A DNA stretch of 64,000 bases from Octopus sinensis (lineage: Eukaryota): assembly GCF_006345805.1 (NCBI RefSeq), contig NC_042998.1, positions 57,040,001-57,104,000 on the forward strand. The letters are read 5' to 3'. The notes beneath the pieces are model-generated. The model worked only from the letters and a program-made list of their open reading frames with translations. It was not told where the DNA came from and did not search any database. Numbering within the stretch: position 1 is the stretch's first letter; each line of letters begins with the position of its first letter. Made by a program: the position numbers and the translations under genes. Below are positions 3,989 to 50,202 of this stretch, piece after piece.

Positions 3989-5115
3989 TTTGACGAAGTC
4001 AGATGGCTCTGTTGGTGAACTTAATACTTCATATGTGCATAAATACAACTAATGCAATCCAGCCTCTAAATACAAGATAGCAAACTGCCTACATTAGAAC
4101 AACCACTGCGATGCAGTAATCTAGACTGATATTAATGGTTCAGATCCCGATCAAAGATTCCAATCTGGTAGTGACCACGCTACGATTCCTTCTGGAAAGT
4201 GGAGCTTGTAGTTTTCACATTCGACTATACTACTGATAACAAGAAGCAACTTCTTGGGTGAATACATTTGTAAAAATGTTTAGCGAGTTCTGTCTGGCCT
4301 ATCCTTCTGCCCTCTCGAAGGGACACTCTACCTGAATGCTTAAATAGATTTTCGAGATCATTAAAGTTCTCCTTGCTCAGCGACATCTCACTCAACCACA
4401 TGTCGTTCCTGGTTATTTCGGCACTTTTGTTTGTGTAACCATATATCATGGTGTTAGTGTATAGGCTGGTGTGTAACATAACAGATCAGCTGGCTTCATA
4501 AACTTGGCCTCAAGTTTAAAACCTTATCAAGCCATGCCATCAGCTCTACCTCCACCTCTCCACGCATCAGATTGAAAGAATGAAACGGTGATATATTTTC
4601 CACTGTTTTCTTCTTTGGACAAAAAGCATGTCTGCGTGTGTGCATTGTTGTTATTACTCGTATCATTGAAGTTGTTTGAATCAATGTCACAATTATCTGT
4701 CAAGAAGTCATTAGTTTTCTGTGTTTGCTACTTGCGTCTTGCCGTGTAATTGAATTTGCCTTGTGTCTGTTGAATTCAATTGATTTTTTTTTGTTTTTGT
4801 TTTTGGTGGGCCTTGTTTTCCTGACAGGAAGTCATCTGAAGTTGAATGTAAACAGAATAAAATTATGCTTAAAATGGTAGAAGCTGTCAGATTTCAAGTC
4901 TTCTCGATATGGGGAGAAATCCAGAGTGTTCCAAAAAGATCTGAAGAAATTGTTAAAAATATAAAATATCTTTATTCTGATGTATTTTGTAGAAATATAA
5001 TCTAAAAATTTTGGAGAACTGCGGAAATGTGACCAAGGTAATTATGTTGAGAAAAATTATAGTTTATAATAAATATATATAAATTATAGTTTATAATAAA
5101 TTATAGTTTATAATA

Positions 5116-5495
5116 TTGTTGGCACAAGGCCAGCAATTTCTAGAGAAGTTGCTAATGAATTAGATCGACTCCAGTGCTCGACTGGTACTTATTTCCTAAA
5201 ATAACGAAAGGCAAAGTCGACCACGATGGAATTTGAACTGAGCACGTGAAATCGGAGGAAATACTCATATCTTTACTACCCACAAGGGCTAAACACAGAA
5301 AGGACAAACAAGGACAGACAAAGGGATTAAGTCGATTATATCGACCCCAGTGCGCAACTGGTACTTATTTAATCGACCCCGAAAGGATGAAATGCAAAGT
5401 CGACCTCGGCGGAATTTGAACTCAGAACGTAGTGGAAGACGAAATACCGCTAAGCATTTTGCTCGGCTTGCTAAAGATCATGCCAGCTCGCCGCC
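5116..5495 (-). mobile_element. Composite SINE family A (full young copy next to an older copy)
   Basis: Head GGCGGCGAGCTGGC at 5495 on the minus strand; reverse-complement match to 3749-3988. Confidence 0.8.
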
Positions 5496-5994
5496 TGTAT
5501 AATTGTCTATGATAACGATCTCAGTATTTAACTAGTATTATATTTTGTCGATTCTCCGTGGGCTTTAACTTCAGAACGACGTGAAAGTCAACGACATACT
5601 GTAAGAAATATTTTCTGACTGACTTATTTGCTGATTTTGCCAATCCGATGCCCAAAATATAAAGACGAAGTTGAAGAACAGGAGGAAAGAATAAAGACGA
5701 ACAAGACGAAGAATATTAGAGAAAATGAGGCAAAATGAAGGACAGAAAAAGATGAAATGAAAGAGTTGAAAGACAAGGAAAAGTGAAGGATAGAAAAAGA
5801 TAAATTGAGTTGACAAACAAAGAAAAATGGCGAAAACATATGGTGATTTCATATCTTAGGATCTAAGAGTATTGTAGCGAAAGTATACACAATTGTAACA
5901 TAGTCAAGGGATTGTATTTCAATATATTACTGGTATCAATCGATTACCTCAAACTCGGGAAAACATCAACATCAACAATGATGCCAAACCAGGT

Positions 5995-6480
5995 GATAAT
6001 TTAATGAAGCGAATAGTGATTGTGATGGTGTCCATGATAATGTCCATGATGATGATGACGAATATGATGCTGCTGCTTTTGTTGTTGTTGTTGTTGCTGT
6101 TGCTTCTTCTGTTACTGCTGGTGAGAATAATAATGATGAATTTGCTGCTGTGGTTGTTGATTATTGTTTTGATGACAACGGCAATGAATATGAATATTTA
6201 GTGGTATGACGATGATGATGATGATGATGATGTTGATGATGATTATGATGATGATGCCAAACATATAATGACAACTACGACTACGACGACGATGGCGCTG
6301 CTGCGGCCGTGGTTGTCACTGCAACGACGCCGACAACGACAATGATGATACGATGACGACGACGATAGGGATGATGATAATGACGACGACGACGACGACG
6401 ATGATGATGATGATGATGATGATGATGACGACGACGACGATGATGATGATGACGACAACGACGAAGACGACGAGGACAAT
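5995..6480. repeat. Compound trinucleotide microsatellite (GAT/GAC/GTT/GCT)
   Basis: Read directly. Confidence 0.9.
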
Positions 6481-9489: not shown

Positions 9490-10256
9490 CAATTTAGGAA
9501 TGGCCTTAACAGGCCATTCGTCCACTAGACAGAGCACCATAACTCTAACCGCAAGTAATATAATTCGGAAATAGGTGAAAATTAAAAACGTTTAGCCTAA
9601 TTCATCTTTTAGACGATGCATCGTTTCTGCGTTTTTAATGATAGACCAGCTTAATTAAATTAAATTAAGCTAATCTACCATAGGTCACGCTTCATATTTT
9701 AGTCTCATGACTATTTTTCTTTTCCACTGGGCCGCTGGTAGTGATAAATTTCTATCGAATTTTTTACTACCCTAAATTGATTAATTGATTATTTTCTGAC
9801 TAATTCTGAGATTGATTCGGCAGTTTATATTTGCTGCTGATAAGATTGGCGCGATTGCGCGGGTCTTCGAAGATTTAAGACAGATATTCCAGAGGCTTCG
9901 ATGCGGTAGCCTCGTGTATATTTGCCTCCACCAAAGGTTTCTTTACTGACGAAGCGTGACCTATGGTAGATTAGCTTAATTTAATTAATTAAGCTGGTCT
10001 ATCATTAAAAACGCAGAAACGATGCATCGTCTAAAAGATGAATTAGGGTAAACGTTTTTAATTTTTCACCTATTTCCGAATTATATTACTTTGCGGTTAG
10101 AGTTATGGCTGCTCTGTCTAGTGGACGAATGGCCTGTTAAGGCCATTCCTAAATTGTTATATATTTACATTTTAGTCTCATGACTATTTTTCTTTTCCAC
10201 TGGCCGCTGGTAGTGATAATTTCTATCGAATTTTTTACTACCCTAAATTGATTAAT
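9484..10256 (+). mobile_element. Non-coding Penelope-LTR-like / retrozyme-like element (473-bp monomer, partial tandem repeat, inverted 5' copy) in (TA)n
   Basis: 9484-9693 is the inverse of 9951-10160; 9696-9785 is directly repeated at 10169-10256; contains a hammerhead motif; (TA)n on both sides. Confidence 0.75.
9940..10038 (+). ncRNA. Type I hammerhead ribozyme motif with extended stem II
   Basis: TCTTTA-CTGACGA-aGCGT...long hairpin...ACGCa-GAAA-CGATGCATCG-TC-TAAAAGA; palindromic stem III; GUC triplet; A.A mismatch at the base of stem II. Confidence 0.7.
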
Positions 10257-10580
10257 ATATATATATATATAATATATATATTTATAATATTTATACATAC
10301 ATACATATATACACTCATATATATATTATATATATATATATATAATATATATATATCATCCTTTTTTCTCTCTTTTTTTTTTGTCTCCTCCTTTATTTCT
10401 CTCCTTGTTTTTCTGTGTCCCTTTCTGTAGAAGAGTGTAGGCTCGAAACGTAAAATACGTTTTCTATTCCTGAGCGTTATACTAATACATCTGTTTGTTT
10501 TGTACACCACCTGTCTTCGTCTTTTGTTTTTTTCATAAACTCTTCCTATATATATATATATATATATATAACATTATATA

Positions 10581-10898
10581 TAAGGGCTTAGTAAAATAAA
10601 TTACTTTGCCACATACTGAACTCATTAGAAATAGCAGCTAAAGAAATTTCTTCAGCTATTTCTAATACTTAAAGAAGATCTCTCTCAGATAGTGTTTGCC
10701 TAAACTAACTCACAAAAGTATGGGGGAAAAAACATTAAAAAATCAAGTGCAAAGGTTATTTGAGAACGTACGTTTCTAGATTAGTCAATTCGACATTTCT
10801 TTCTTCAGCTCAGAATTCCTTGAATCGGATTTGGGAACACTGAAAGTCGGGAGCATACCCTTTCGGCTTCTAATCACCTCTAGAATTCTGCTCGAAAT
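10581..10898 (-). mobile_element. Non-coding hammerhead-bearing element in (TA)n, related to 49334-50202
   Basis: Shares AAGGGnTTAG...TTAGAAATAGCAG..AAAGA...AGCTATTTCT...GATCTC with 49340-49435; (TA)n on both sides. Confidence 0.65.
10760..10813 (-). ncRNA. Type I hammerhead ribozyme motif
   Basis: Minus strand: TGAG-CTGAAGA-aAGAaatGTCgaattGACtaaTCTa-GAAA-CGTACG-TT-CTCA. Confidence 0.65.
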
Positions 10899-18505: not shown

Positions 18506-19745
18506 CAGGGGTTGGACAAAATAATGGAAACACTTAGCATCATAGCATCATAATTTTGAAATATCTATAAAACCTTCAAAAGATTGTTTATTTTTATGTT
18601 TGTTGATTTATTATTAGTGTTGCTTAATATGTTTTGCTAAAATTGCTGTTTCTTTCCAGATATCAGAAAAACGGAATTAAAATTCATTAAAACGACAGAT
18701 CTATCGGACTTGCAAAGAGGTCAAATTGTTGGTACTCGTATGGCAGGCACTAGAGTAACGAAAACAGTCGAAATGTTTGTTGTATCAAGAGGTAGTGTCT
18801 CGTTGAAACAAAACTCTGGAAGAAAACCAAAACTTTCAGATAGGGACTATCGGACTCTTACGCGAATTGTTAGAAAGGATCACAAAGTACAGCTCCCAAG
18901 ATTACTGCAGAGGTTAATGACAACCTCGAGAACCCAGTTTCCACAAAAACTGTTCGCCGGGAGCTGCACAAAGCCAGATTTCATGGGAGGGAGGCAATCA
19001 GAAAACCACTACTTTCAAAAACAAACGTTGCAAAGCGTTCAGAGTGGAGTAAAAACCTACAGAATTGGTCCCTAGAGCAGCGGAAGAATGTTATTTTCTC
19101 GGACGAGTCATCCTTTACCTTATTTCCGACTACCGGCCGTATATACGTGAGGAGACAGCCAAATGAAGCATTTGACCTAGACCGCCTTCTTCCAACTGTT
19201 AAACAATGAGGAGAATTTGTGATGATGTGGGGAGGAGGAGCTATATCTTGGAAATATGCCGGCCCAATGGTTTCCCTCCATGGCAGAATTAATAGTCTTT
19301 GAAAGACTATTTAAACATTTTATCTGATCAAATTCATCATATGGTTGCGGAACTGTTTCTGAAGGGAAATGCAATCTTTCAGGATGATAATGCACCAATT
19401 CACTCAGCTAAAGTTCTTACTGAATGGCACGAGGAACATTCTAGTGAAGTTGAACATTTTATCTGGCCACCACAGTCCCGAGATCTCAATATTATTGAAT
19501 ATTTTTGGTGCATTTTAGAAAAAACAAGTAAAGAGTCGATATCCTCCACCATCACCACTAGAAGAATTGGAGACTCTTTTAGCTGAAGAAATGGACAAAA
19601 ATTCCTTTGGAAACAATTGAAACTTTGTATGAGTCCATACCTCGTAGAATACAAGCTGTAATTACTGCTAAAGTCGGTCCTACCCCATATTAAAATAAAT
19701 TTGTTTGAAATTTTAAGGTATTTCCATTATTTTGTCCAACCCCTG
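18506..19745 (+). mobile_element. Tc1 transposon (about 1.24 kb) with frameshifted DD34E-type transposase pseudogene
   Basis: TIRs CAGGGGTTGGACAAAATAATGGAAA at both ends, TA TSD; motifs QRGQIVG, SGRKPKL, VIFSDESSF, FQDDNAPIH, WPPQSRDLNIIE spread over several frames. Confidence 0.92.
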
Positions 19746-32673: not shown

Positions 32674-32762
32674 CAGTTCTATATTTAAGAGATGTGGAAT
32701 TATGCACATTATTTACATTATTTACAATTGACGGATATTTGTCCTCATCTTGTTTGTTGTTA

Positions 32763-32806
32763 ACATACCGTTTCGGCTGATATACCCTCCAGCTTTAATC
32801 AGGTGT
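32763..32806 (-). ncRNA. Degenerate hammerhead motif in the inverted Penelope pLTR
   Basis: ACAC-CTGATTA-aAGCTG...CAGCC-GAAA-CGGT-ATGT; the core is mutated. Confidence 0.45.
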
Positions 32807-32857
32807 CTTGAGGGAAATTTCGAACCTGGGTACTCATTCCAAATAAAAATAAAAAAA

Positions 32858-33649
32858 AGACAGCTAGCATTCCTGCACGTATTAATAACACGCATCAAGT
32901 ATGGATTTATGACATCCGTATACCGCAAGCCGACCTTCACTGGACGATACCTCAACTTCAACTCCCACCATCCATACAGTGTAAAGAGAGGGATTGCTCA
33001 GTGCCTAAAACATCGAGCAATGAATATAAGTAGCGATCGTGACACCCACCACAAAGAAATGATCAAGCTCAGTAACAATCTATTAAGCAACAACTGCCCC
33101 AAAAGCATGCTCTCCCCTCCAATTATGAAGAAAAGAGAAGATGAAACCGATAAACTGTCCAAAGTCTGTCTACCCTATGTGAAAGGCCTCTTCGAATAGA
33201 TACAAAAGATATGCGGTCCATACGACATCAGGACAGTATTCAAAAGTAATACAACACTTCGGAAATATCTCCTTCGAGTAAAACCACCAATAGAAGAGAA
33301 TATGACTAAGAACTACGTGTACTCCATCCCATGCTGCTGTGGTAGGTTATACAAAGGCGAAACATGCCGCCCCCTCAAAATAAGGGCAGAGGATCATCGC
33401 AAAGCTGTGACACGGGGAGATATTGCTAAACCAGGTATAGCTGACTATGTATGGAAAAATGGAGACCACCTCTCCCCGTGGGATGAAGTTAAAATGATGA
33501 TAGACAGAGAACACCACTGGAAAATACGTAAACTAAAAGAAGCAGCACATATGCTAGGACACAACAACCTCCTAAACAAACCGAGTGCAGATATGAACAG
33601 CATATTCGAACCGGTATTAAGGAAAGATACAAGAATATTAGATTTATAA
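32858..33649 (+). pseudogene. Penelope RT thumb + GIY-YIG endonuclease, one in-frame stop at 33197-33199
   Basis: LAFLHVLI...SVYRKPTFTGRYLNFNSHHP...LPYVKGL...YVYSIPCCCGRLYKGETCRPLKIRAEDH...RKLKEA; ORFs 32750-33199 and 33302-33649 share a frame and the gap is open. Confidence 0.9.
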
Positions 33650-33880
33650 GCCCTAAAATTCACTCCATAATTTCCCATGGGCATATGGCGTCGTGGTTAA
33701 GAGCGCGCGTTACTAGCCACAAGATCCCGAGTTCGATTCCAGGCAGTGACCTGAATAATGATGACAATGACGATGATGATGACTATGATGACGATGACAA
33801 TGATGATGATGATGATAACAACATCAACAACATTGAAAAATACCTTAGGAATGAGAACCCAGGTTCGAAATTTCCCCAAG

Positions 33881-33924
33881 ACACCTGATGAAGGCAGGAG
33901 GGTATATCAGCTGAAACGTTGTGT
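33881..33924 (+). ncRNA. Minimal type I hammerhead motif in the Penelope 3' pLTR
   Basis: ACAC-CTGATGA-aGGCAG gagggtatat CAGCT-GAAACGTT-GTGT; palindromic AACGTT replaces stem III. Confidence 0.65.
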
Positions 33925-33954
33925 AAATAATATAAATAATATACTGAGTAGATA

Positions 33955-45699: not shown

Positions 45700-46785
45700 A
45701 AACAATTGCAGCGTGGAAGGTTAGGCTAGGAAGAGGTCCAGCTTTGATTTAAAAACGCCTACATCTACATTGTGCAGGTTCCTTAGGCTCTTTAGGAGAA
45801 TATAAAAAAAGCTGTGGGTCCCTGAAACTCAGGTTGTTGAGTAACTGGTCTTGAAGCGCGATGGCATTCCTGGGATCTTTGGCACTGTGCAGTGTCGACC
45901 CGTTCTGGCATTGGCGTACCTTTCAATGCCAAAATTTGGCAAAATTCTTTCCAGGATCTTCCAGATGTATATTACTGCATACCTCTCCCTCGCTCCAGGA
46001 AGTAGAGTCTTAGCTGTTTCAGCCTTTCCCAGTAGATGAGCTGTTGCAAAGAGTTGATCTTCTTTGTGATTCTTCGCTGGATTGTTTCAAGTTCCGCTAT
46101 TAATTTTACAAAGTTGGGTGAACATGGCTGGGAGCAGTAATCCAGGCGGCTGAGGACGAATGTTCTCAAGAGGACCATCATGGTTTCCTTATCTCTGGTT
46201 CTGAATATTCTCAGGATCCATCCAGCCAGTCGTCTGCACTTTGTCGCCATCCTGGTAATGATCACTTGGAAAGAGGTATCATCACTCATGTCGATATCCA
46301 AGTCCCTCACTGATTTAGGCTCTAGAATTAAAATTCCCTGTGTACCAGTGTACTCTGTAAGTTTCACATTTAGTTTTGGACGCTCGTAGCGCAGGGCTTG
46401 ATTTTTTCACATTAAACTGCATATTATTATCCTCAGCCCATCTGTAAAATGAGTCCAGTTCCTGCTGCATATGTGCAACATCACTGGGGTTCTGTAGTTT
46501 CTGCGATATAGTTGTATCATCTGCGTAGCTTACAAGGGTGGATTTCCGGGCAGTGGAGGTTACATCTGAGAGGGCCACCATAAAAAGCAGTGGTGCCAAG
46601 GGTGTGCCCTGTGGAACACCGCTCACTATTTGTGGCCACGACTGCCTGACTTCTATTTTCGGAAAGTCATGTAACCACTCACCAAGTTTTCCAGCTTAGC
46701 CGAGACTACGCAGTTTGTGGCATATCATACCACAATACATTTTGTCTAAAGCTTTTGCAAAATCAAGGTATATTACGTCCACATT
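45700..46785 (-). pseudogene. CR1/L2-type LINE reverse transcriptase relic
   Basis: YLDFAKALDK, SGVPQGTPLAPLLF, YADDT, WAEDNNMQFN, LSRLDYCSQ, LETIQRRITK. Confidence 0.85.
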
Positions 46786-48207: not shown

Positions 48208-49300
48208 GTTCAGCAATATTTAGATTCAGATAGATATGGTACTCAAGTTAAAAGCACCAGAATGTGGTATGGTATTATCCATATAAATGAAATGGGGTGA
48301 TTATAATCAAAATAAGCAACATGGATATCCAAGGTGGTGTAGTACAATCGTTTCATGCTACTTCATTTTATTAAAGAATGTAAGTATTACATCAGTTTTA
48401 AAATGAAGAGAAATTTTGAATTTTAACCGTTGTCCCTGAAAAGAGTGTCATATATATACGTGAGTGCACATGCAAGGGTTCCACGCGAGTGTAAGTGAGC
48501 ATATGCATATATAGCATGTACGTATTTTAAATGTGCAATTGAAAATAACTGTGCGCGTGGGGGTACCTGCACGTGTGTGTGCGCACGTACGTGCGGATAT
48601 ACATATGTGTACACCGGGCGTGTGTGTGTGTGAGCGTGTATGTTTATATGTACATGTGTATGGTTGCACGCATGCGTGGGTCTACACGCGTGTGTTCCAC
48701 GCGAGTGTGTGCGAGCATATAGCATGTGCGTATTTTTAGACGTGTATTTCAATATTGCTCTGTGCGTATCGGTATGTGCGTGTGTGTGTGAGTGGGCCCG
48801 CGTGTGTGGATTTGTATACGTGTACATGCATGGTTGCATATATATGTGCATCTATTTGGCGTATGTGTGTGTTTCATGCGAATCTGAGTGAACATATGCA
48901 TTCAGGCACATGAACGTGGGTGTGCGTGCGCGCATGTGTATGTATGTACATACGCGATTGTTATGAGCATTTTTACTCCTTTACTTCTTACTTCCGTCCC
49001 CTTCGCTTTTTTCCCCCCTCATTTAACGGTTACTCTAATAGCAATTTTGTCTTAATAACGTTCAATTACATAGTAATTTCCCTTTGTTTAACTGTCATTT
49101 TTCAAAGCATATTTTAATTACCTCGATAACTGAAGAGATGTTTTGTTATTTACCTAAATTCAGTGGAAATACCGGTTCGTGTGTCACATAGCTAGAGGCG
49201 ATGGTCTCTTGGAGCTAATCAACGGCAGCATTCGTCCTATTTTTCTGGACTGCCATGTTAGCTTGGCGATAACTTATTTATACACACACACACACACATA

Positions 49301-49333
<33 letters not shown>

Positions 49334-49335
<2 letters not shown>

Positions 49336-50202
49336 CAATTAAGGGTTTAGCAACGAATTGCCTTACCGCACACCGAATTTAGAAATAGCAGTCAAAGAGA
49401 TTATAGCTATTTCTTCTACTAAAAGGGAGATCTCAGCAAAAACACAGCATTTGAAAGGCAAAACACAAACAGGTAAGAGAGAATGAATTAACGGCAATCT
49501 ATCATACAGTTTTAAGTCACCTACGGACGTACGTTTCGAGATCAAGTCTTAGGAAAGTATAAGAATTAGATAATTCTACCTTACCCATACTTCTTCTCTC
49601 ATCAGCGCAGGATACGAACAATCATGAATGATTGTATATTGAATTTTCAGATACTAGAAGGCACCAACTTAACTCAGTATCAGAGCGAGCTAGAAGCCAC
49701 AGCCAGTATCACCAAATTCAAAGTTTGAATGAAAGTTTGTGTCACCAGTCCCTTCCCACCCGCGTGTAGCCAAGACAAAGTGCTGTGGTCATTTACTGGG
49801 ATGAATATGGTTATCAGTAACAATGAAGGGTGAAATTAATTAATTTGGAATAATTATCAATTACACCAAGTAGTCTTCGGCATGTAAAAGCCTCATTCGA
49901 GGAAAATTTAAGTAATACTAAGCAATTAAGGGTTTAGCAACGAATTGCCTTACCGCACACCAAATTTAGAAATAGCAGTCAAAGAGATTATAGCTATTTC
50001 TTCTACTAAAAGGGAGATCTCAGCAAAAACACAGCATTTGAAAGGCAAAACACAAACAGGTAAGAGAGAATGAATTAACGGCAATCTATCATACAGTTTT
50101 AAGTCACCTACGGACGTACGTTTCGAGGGAGGGACTGGTGACACAAACTTTCATTCAAACTTTGAATTTGGTGATACTGGCTGTGGCTTCTAGCTCGCTC
50201 TG
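49334..50202 (-). mobile_element. Non-coding Penelope-LTR-like / retrozyme-like element (587-bp monomer, 207-bp direct repeat, inverted 5' piece)
   Basis: 49334-49540 is repeated at 49921-50127; 50128-50202 is the inverse of 49681-49755; begins at a (TA)n tract; contains a hammerhead. Confidence 0.8.
49520..49611 (-). ncRNA. Type I hammerhead ribozyme with canonical core and extended stem II
   Basis: Minus strand: CCTGCG-CTGATGA-GAGA...AGAATT atct AATTCT...TCTC-GAAA-CGTACG-TC-CGTAGG; 6-bp stem I, G-C closing stem II, GUC triplet. Confidence 0.85.

What the first reader, a model, noticed from the sequence alone, without database searches (positions are those of the whole stretch)
49334..50202. 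Best ribozyme candidate: canonical hammerhead in a 587-bp monomer with near-identical 207-bp terminal redundancy
Seen: a fully canonical core with GUC cleavage predicted between 49526 and 49525 on the minus strand. The second repeat holds only the 3' half (CTC-GAAA-CGTACG-TC-CGTAGG), truncated at stem II and joined to a 75-bp inverted piece. I see one substitution between the repeats, so it is recent. Inference: the palindromic CGTACG stem III copies could pair in a dimer-like fold, and cleavage sites 587 nt apart would release a unit-length RNA able to circularise.
Basis: partly seen in the sequence, partly recalled or inferred. Interest (0 to 1): 0.75.

Follow-up and report, generated by a model that had tools for sequence, protein, structure and literature searches.

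The report
Two-armed hammerhead retrozyme insertion
This is one young copy of a scattered, protein-free jumping repeat that carries a predicted self-cutting RNA motif; the shapes of its many copies suggest that a borrowed Penelope-type enzyme likely copies one RNA, probably a circle, from two fixed start points into TA microsatellites, while this particular copy is probably a product rather than a source.

Summary
Observation confirmed: a 587-bp unit with a complete type I hammerhead (cut predicted 49526/49525, minus strand), a 207-bp repeat with one substitution, and a 75-76-bp inverted piece. It is not an LTR-like unit but one insertion of a dispersed non-coding family (227 exact core matches; 2,782 with sister subfamilies) in a 2.7-Gb animal genome. 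In 79 insertions, 3' ends fall at two fixed sites about 105 nt apart and run into (TA)n; 31 of 32 two-armed insertions with canonical ends use one site on each arm, as do 11 of 11 two-armed copies of an autonomous Neptune-type Penelope element here. All passes and both arms of an insertion share lineage alleles (157 versus 6), and 5' breaks ignore the cut site: this favours repeated copying of one unit, probably a circle. Stem I covaries across families. Verdict: new member of the animal non-LTR retrozymes. Cleavage, circles and the helper are untested. This scan already reported the same two-arm pattern for other families in this genome.

The parts
49334..49920 (-). Full 587-bp retrozyme unit (first pass of reverse transcription); non-coding, longest stop-free frame 61 codons even when read as a circle
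49921..50127 (-). 5'-truncated second pass (207 bp, one substitution)
50128..50202 (+). Inverted second arm (unit positions 165-240), joined head-to-head with 1 shared base; ends at a non-canonical site without a TA tract
49520..49611 (-). Complete type I hammerhead motif, predicted cut 49526/49525; palindromic minimal stem III CGUACG
50107..50127 (-). 3' half of a second hammerhead (GAAA, palindrome, GUC, stem I 3' strand); predicted cut 50113/50112 only if a core is supplied by the downstream copy
49298..49333 (.). (TA)n target microsatellite abutting the 3' end of the element (end site A)
49909..49920 (-). Internal copy of end site A (unit 587 to 12), where most arms of the family end
49804..49835 (-). 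End site B (unit 94-117), preceded by TTTCACCCTT (49835-49826), a word also found at site B of an autonomous Neptune-type family
49829..49867 (-). Predicted AU-rich hairpin just before site B, kept in four related families
49381..49414 (-). Predicted stem AGAAAUAGC/GCUAUUUCU upstream of site A, kept in four related families

Best explanation
This is one insertion of a dispersed, non-coding, hammerhead-bearing repeat family (an animal non-LTR retrozyme) that is likely pasted into TA microsatellites by the reverse transcriptase and GIY-YIG nuclease of a Neptune-type Penelope-like element, probably using a unit-length RNA circle as template. Steps: (1) inferred: multi-unit arrays are transcribed, and neighbouring hammerheads pair through the CGUACG palindromes and cut once per unit; (2) inferred from other animals: a host ligase closes the 587-nt unit, and the lone hammerhead in the circle is predicted to stay inactive (stem III unformed); (3) shown in the DNA: new copies sit in (TA)n, and their arms end at two fixed internal sites about 105 nt apart, one site per arm; inferred: the helper nicks both target strands and primes one cDNA at each site; (4) shown: arms run for any length up to several units, share the same alleles and meet head-to-head with 0-11 shared bases; inferred: both were copied round one template and joined by microhomology. 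The window copy has 1.35 units on one arm and a 76-nt second arm, and is probably not itself a good source of circles.
For: Copy number and dispersal: 227 exact core matches, 2,782 with sister subfamilies, 16,250 for a motif shared by the wider group, controls 0. Ends: of 79 insertions, 42 one-armed (35 at A, 5 at B, 2 other) and 37 two-armed (31 A+B, 1 A+A, 0 B+B, 5 with one non-canonical end); 31 of 32, p about 8e-9 against an even split; 109 of 114 arm ends at A or B run into TA-rich DNA. Same rule in an autonomous Neptune-type family of this genome: 11 of 11 two-armed copies. Single template: within-insertion differences 0.91% against 2.98% between insertions in subfamily A; lineage alleles in all passes 157, discordant 6; 20 alleles private to one insertion are in all of its passes, some across both arms (8 of 8, 5 of 5, 5 of 5 passes). 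5' breaks do not pile up at the cut site: 3 of 116 in a 13-nt window, about 2.6 expected. Ribozyme under constraint: variation 0.41% in the core and 0.75% in stem I against 1.88% elsewhere; stem I changes while staying paired across families (CCUGCG/CGUAGG, UCUACG/CGUAGA, ACUGUA/UACAGU). Circle folds at z = -4.5 against 40 shuffles, stems I and II formed, stem III not. Tandem, inverted and tailed insertions and internal start sites are published hallmarks of Penelope-like elements.
Against: No cleavage, RNA or circle was shown. An uncut multimer transcribed from a homogeneous donor array gives the same allele pattern, and 'private' is relative to 82 sampled loci. In vitro, a lizard Penelope element did not need its hammerhead for insertion and used unprocessed RNA; 8 of 9 predicted frog retrozyme dimers did not cleave. 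Non-standard cores have spread here: subfamily B has C at U4, and 42 of 99 subfamily A passes have A at position 10.1 opposite C. Two adjacent passes of one array share two alleles absent from its other passes (L084), which points to local duplication after insertion. No sampled autonomous element shows alignable homology to the unit; the best candidate shares only a 10-nt word and has a 35-nt, not 105-nt, tail. The window copy's second arm ends at neither site.
Confidence: 0.7

Rival explanations
1. Same Penelope-driven insertion, but the template is an uncut linear multimer from a few homogeneous donor arrays (or one linear unit re-used by template jumps); the hammerhead only trims transcripts and circles are by-products or absent.
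For: Hammerhead dispensable for insertion in vitro in a lizard element; non-standard cores spread; homogeneous arrays exist.
Against: A daughter cannot be longer than a linear donor transcript, yet lineages are homogeneous and arrays reach about 10 units; discordant alleles are not shared in register between insertions; jumps at the RNA 5' end would pile breaks at the cut site, which is not seen.
Confidence: 0.2
2. One reading: this very locus is a working source that cuts at 50113 and 49526 and releases a 587-nt circle (can hold together with the best explanation).
For: Intact canonical core; the half-site fold is favourable in an RNA that starts at 50127; young copy, nearest relative 0.4-0.5% away.
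Against: The inverted arm blocks that fold in read-through RNA; second cut depends on the weak monomer; no promoter identified.
Confidence: 0.12
3. A satellite or a deleted relic of an autonomous Penelope element, expanded by unequal crossing-over, with the hammerhead a passenger.
For: Li et al. propose local tandem amplification of Penelope terminal repeats; one array shows signs of local duplication.
Against: Copies are dispersed over many contigs with fixed 3' ends in (TA)n, variable 5' ends and inverted arms; no coding relic; core and stems conserved and covarying.
Confidence: 0.05

Closest known systems
Animal non-LTR retrozymes (Cervera and de la Pena 2020, PMC7229834, results and discussion read; Li, Clavereau and Pollet 2026, bioRxiv 10.64898/2026.07.22.740005, parts 1-3 of 5 read)
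   Same: Non-coding AT-rich tandem units, one type I hammerhead per unit with a minimal palindromic stem III (like axolotl HHR_Amex1), highly self-paired predicted circle, co-occurrence with Penelope-like elements.
   Different: Unit 587 nt, above the 170-400 nt of the tested cases (within the 51-972 bp range of Li et al.); long stem II; strict (TA)n targeting and the two-arm, two-site insertion rule were not described in the parts read; circles and cleavage not tested here.
Penelope-like elements, Neptune/Poseidon/Naiad clades (Craig et al. 2021, PMC8557442, passages; Frangieh et al. 2024, PMC11167929, main text read; Cervera and de la Pena 2014, PMC4209133, part 1 of 4)
   Same: 5' truncation, partial tandems, adjacent inverted copy, a tail at one end only, two internal start sites, AT-rich or (TA)n targets, type I hammerhead that may need a dimer.
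   Different: No reverse transcriptase or nuclease gene; tail about 105 nt instead of 30-40; up to about 10 passes per insertion; Frangieh et al. saw no strand difference in start site in vitro, whereas here the two arms almost always use different sites.
Non-autonomous Chlamys elements such as MRC1 (PMC8557442, passage)
   Same: Non-coding Penelope dependants with pseudo-LTRs and multicopy head-to-tail insertions.
   Different: Those lack canonical hammerheads and resemble their helper at the 3' end; here a hammerhead is present and no alignable helper was found.

Membership tests
Type I hammerhead ribozyme | Conserved core CUGANGA, GAAA, NUH with three stems in type I order | tested here: met
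Type I hammerhead ribozyme | Stems covary or are conserved among relatives | tested here: met
Type I hammerhead ribozyme | Match to an Rfam hammerhead model | tested here: not met
   long stem II and minimal stem III probably fall outside the models (inference)
Type I hammerhead ribozyme | Self-cleavage at the predicted bond | not testable with these tools
   needs in vitro transcription
Animal non-LTR retrozyme | Tandem units each with a type I hammerhead, at least two consecutive complete units somewhere in the family | tested here: met
   arrays; the window copy itself has only one complete motif
Animal non-LTR retrozyme | No protein-coding capacity, no LTR structure, GC under 50% | tested here: met
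   primer-binding site and polypurine tract were not searched for separately
Animal non-LTR retrozyme | Dispersed mobile copies | tested here: met
Animal non-LTR retrozyme | Expressed as linear and circular unit RNA | tested here: inconclusive
   only contigs of runs not on record as RNA
Penelope-mobilised element | Partial tandems, inverted 5'-truncated copy, tail at one end, microsatellite target | tested here: met
   same pattern in an autonomous family
Penelope-mobilised element | Sequence homology to the terminal repeat of an autonomous helper | tested here: inconclusive
   profile search of 70 loci around autonomous elements found only separate insertions; one family shares a 10-nt word at site B; only a small part of 5,029-6,470 candidates was examined
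Autonomous Penelope-like element | Open frame for reverse transcriptase plus GIY-YIG nuclease | tested here: not met

The most novel reading that the evidence does not exclude
A Penelope protein dimer loads one ribozyme-made RNA circle, nicks both strands of a TA microsatellite and starts one cDNA at each of two fixed, structure-marked sites; both polymerases run round the same circle and their products are joined head-to-head. The genome thus records rolling-circle, two-strand target-primed reverse transcription, explains why the Penelope 'tail' sits at one end only, and names a candidate helper (the Neptune-type family that shares TTTCACCCTT at site B).
Probability: 0.35. Interest if true: 0.75.

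Novelty: new member of a known kind. Interest (0 to 1): 0.5.

Why it matters
How animal retrozymes move is still a hypothesis in the papers read (circle as template, Penelope elements as likely helpers), and how Penelope elements build their tandem, inverted and tailed insertions is listed as open. A young family with hundreds of near-intact insertions, a near-strict one-site-per-arm rule shared with a co-resident autonomous element, and single-template allele patterns gives precise predictions for an in vitro test. The wider group has over 16,000 motif matches in this genome, so it is a real component of its repeat content. The kind of element itself is known.

Tried and rejected
Rfam: no hammerhead hit, only microsatellite noise. 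Expression: no RNA holder listed; contigs of 4 runs guessed to be RNA cover 30 of 30 bins and cross the unit junction, but a genomic tandem gives the same junction and DNA cannot be excluded, so this is not used as evidence. Empty-site test on the right flank with 4 runs: flank not covered, no verdict on why the second arm ends at unit 240. Helper search: GIY-YIG family search (150 of 5,029 candidates scored), protein search (121 of 6,470), 70 loci scanned with profiles of the repeat and 20 loci of the shared 17-mer: no alignable helper. A loose-end word has no match in the genome. A recalled Pfam accession was not in the library. The window's own Penelope-like fragment (32732-33649) gave no Pfam match and has no similarity to the unit. 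Apparent allele mosaics at unit 432-437 in subfamily B were alignment artefacts at a TCTT run. Short hidden second arms in one-armed insertions: found in 1 of 41 listed. LTR-retrozyme reading rejected: repeat length varies freely and the ribozyme is type I. Literature: five searches listed no paper on this family or on the one-site-per-arm rule; supplements of PMC7229834 and PMC8557442 were not read and may list related repeats. No tool named the host; earlier AI notes call it an octopus, and mollusc/octopus/cephalopod were used only as search words.

Full report
Observation. The coordinates hold. A 207-bp direct repeat (49334-49540, 49921-50127) differs at one base, and 50128-50202 is an inverted copy of 49681-49755, also with one difference. 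On the minus strand there is a complete type I hammerhead: stem I CCUGCG/CGUAGG, CUGAUGA, a 4-bp stem II with a long extension, GAAA, the palindrome CGUACG, and GUC with the cut predicted between 49526 and 49525. The upstream repeat holds only the 3' half. The 3' end of the element abuts a (TA)n tract. Rfam does not match it. The unit has no frame over 61 codons even when read as a circle.

A family, not a single locus. The window lies in a 2.72-Gb genome. A 22-nt core word occurs 227 times, a 19-nt word covering sister subfamilies 2,782 times, and a motif shared with more distant families 16,250 times; reversed controls give 0. I fetched 100 loci of the family, 82 after merging overlaps: 63 close to the window copy (subfamily A) and 19 at 86-89% (B and two outliers). 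The sample is biased to near-complete units and to the first contigs. Sister families of about 556, 560 and 600 bp are homologous along the unit.

Insertion anatomy. Positions are counted along the minus-strand unit from 49920. After dropping two loci with N or duplication and two groups cut by the fetch edge, 79 insertions remain. Arm ends cluster at site A (573-15) or site B (94-117); resolution is about 10 nt because alignments run into the TA tract. 109 of 114 such ends are followed by TA-rich DNA. One-armed insertions: 35 A, 5 B, 2 other. Two-armed, head-to-head insertions: 31 A+B, 1 A+A, 0 B+B, 5 with one odd end; 31 of 32 has p about 8e-9. The arms meet with 0-11 shared bases in 32 of 37 cases and with 2-10 extra bases in 5. 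5' breaks are spread along the unit, 3 of 116 near the cut site against about 2.6 expected. The window copy is one of the five odd ones: 794 nt ending at A plus a 76-nt arm ending at 240 without a TA tract; whether that is a later deletion could not be tested. Published Penelope-like elements show 5' truncation, partial tandems, an adjacent inverted copy, a tail at one end only and microsatellite targets (PMC8557442, passages), and a purified one nicks and extends both strands and starts inside its RNA at two sites (PMC11167929, main text). In this genome several autonomous families carry reverse transcriptase, a CxxxxCxxC linker and GIY-YIG, the Neptune/Nematis layout, and sit in (TA)n. In one of them, 11 of 11 two-armed copies among 33 loci pair the two end sites (the loci were chosen for one end at site B, and the other arm was never B). 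The same machinery is therefore likely (inference).

One template per insertion. Counting substitutions only, passes within an insertion differ by 0.91% (306 of 33,656) against 2.98% between insertions in subfamily A. Alleles shared with three or more other loci are in all passes 157 times and discordant 6 times; alleles seen in one insertion only are in all its passes 20 times, in one pass 124 times (later mutation or read error), in some 5 times (two outlier loci left out). Several private alleles run through both arms and up to 8 passes. In the window copy all six lineage alleles that overlap are shared by its passes. Arrays reach about 10 units. This is what repeated copying round a single-unit circle predicts, as Cervera and de la Pena hypothesised. 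It does not exclude an uncut multimer from a homogeneous donor, and one array shows two neighbouring passes with two shared extra alleles.

Ribozyme and fold. Variation is 0.41% in the core, 0.75% in stem I and 1.88% elsewhere. Stem I changes across families while staying paired (the counts include overlapping loci). Against a demand for fast cutting, subfamily B has C at U4 and 42 of 99 A passes have an A-C mismatch at the base of stem II. The unit folds as a circle at -160.7 kcal/mol, z = -4.5 against 40 shuffles, with stems I and II formed and stem III not, the arrangement thought to allow cutting in multimers but not in circles (PMC4209133). Around sites A and B nine units from four families share a fold of 38 pairs, 6 with changes on both sides, likely the signal read by the helper (inference).

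Without the inverted arm, the fold in which the downstream core cuts the upstream half-site costs 0.5 kcal/mol and the monomer fold 7.8. With the arm, as in any read-through RNA, it costs about 81 in a nested model. The locus is thus more likely a product; multi-unit arrays are the better sources.

Helper. Profiles of the repeat found no homologous terminal repeat in 70 loci around autonomous elements. One Neptune-type family ends at site B in TTTCACCCTT, the same ten letters that precede site B here; its tail is about 35 nt, so the link is a lead only.

Expression. Not shown: no run on record as RNA was listed, and contigs cannot tell a circle from a tandem.

Comparison and verdict. It meets every testable feature of animal non-LTR retrozymes and works like a Penelope dependant. 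Five literature searches listed no description of this family or of the one-site-per-arm rule; supplements were not read. After my reading was formed, the scan's notes showed the same two-arm pattern for other families in this genome; they are unchecked AI notes and not independent support, and none matched this sequence or place. New member of a known kind, with a mechanistic signature that is directly testable; interest 0.5.

Noticed in passing
window 10575-10895 (-): 5'-truncated copy of a sister family (556-bp unit, GUU hammerhead at 10808-10765); many copies are 100% identical and one array spans about 19 kb (G000:C13:24072156-24091381).
   Followed up: partly
window 9500-10240: Another hammerhead motif (9946-10031, +, palindromic stem III CGAUGCAUCG) in a repeat with direct and inverted parts; a separate family.
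   Followed up: no
window 32732-33925 (+): Broken Penelope-like reverse transcriptase/GIY-YIG fragment (assigned by eye from recalled motifs; no Pfam match) with a hammerhead motif downstream at 33885-33925.
   Followed up: partly
L172:674-4374, L175, L232: Young Neptune-type families have a second, upstream open frame (479 or 451 aa) overlapping the 775-781-aa RT/GIY-YIG frame by about 80 bases, in several copies; canonical Penelope elements have one frame. Frameshift, intron or true second gene not tested.
   Followed up: no
L223:2740-2790 (-), L220-L222: Autonomous Neptune-type family with a minimal hammerhead whose core reads UUGAAAA (U3-A8 type, as reported for a Schistosoma element) and a CCGG palindrome.
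   Followed up: partly
L081-L083, L154: Subfamily B and a further subfamily carry C at core position U4 in all units yet form some of the longest arrays.
   Followed up: partly
L100 and L117 (G000:C2:61.15 and 61.27 Mb): Two insertions with the same 3' flank and alleles but different inverted arms: a segmental or assembly duplicate, or a rearranged allele.
   Followed up: no
window 18641-19209 (+) and 45972-46695 (-): Fragments that look by eye like a Tc1/mariner transposase and a LINE reverse transcriptase (recalled motifs, not tested).
   Followed up: no
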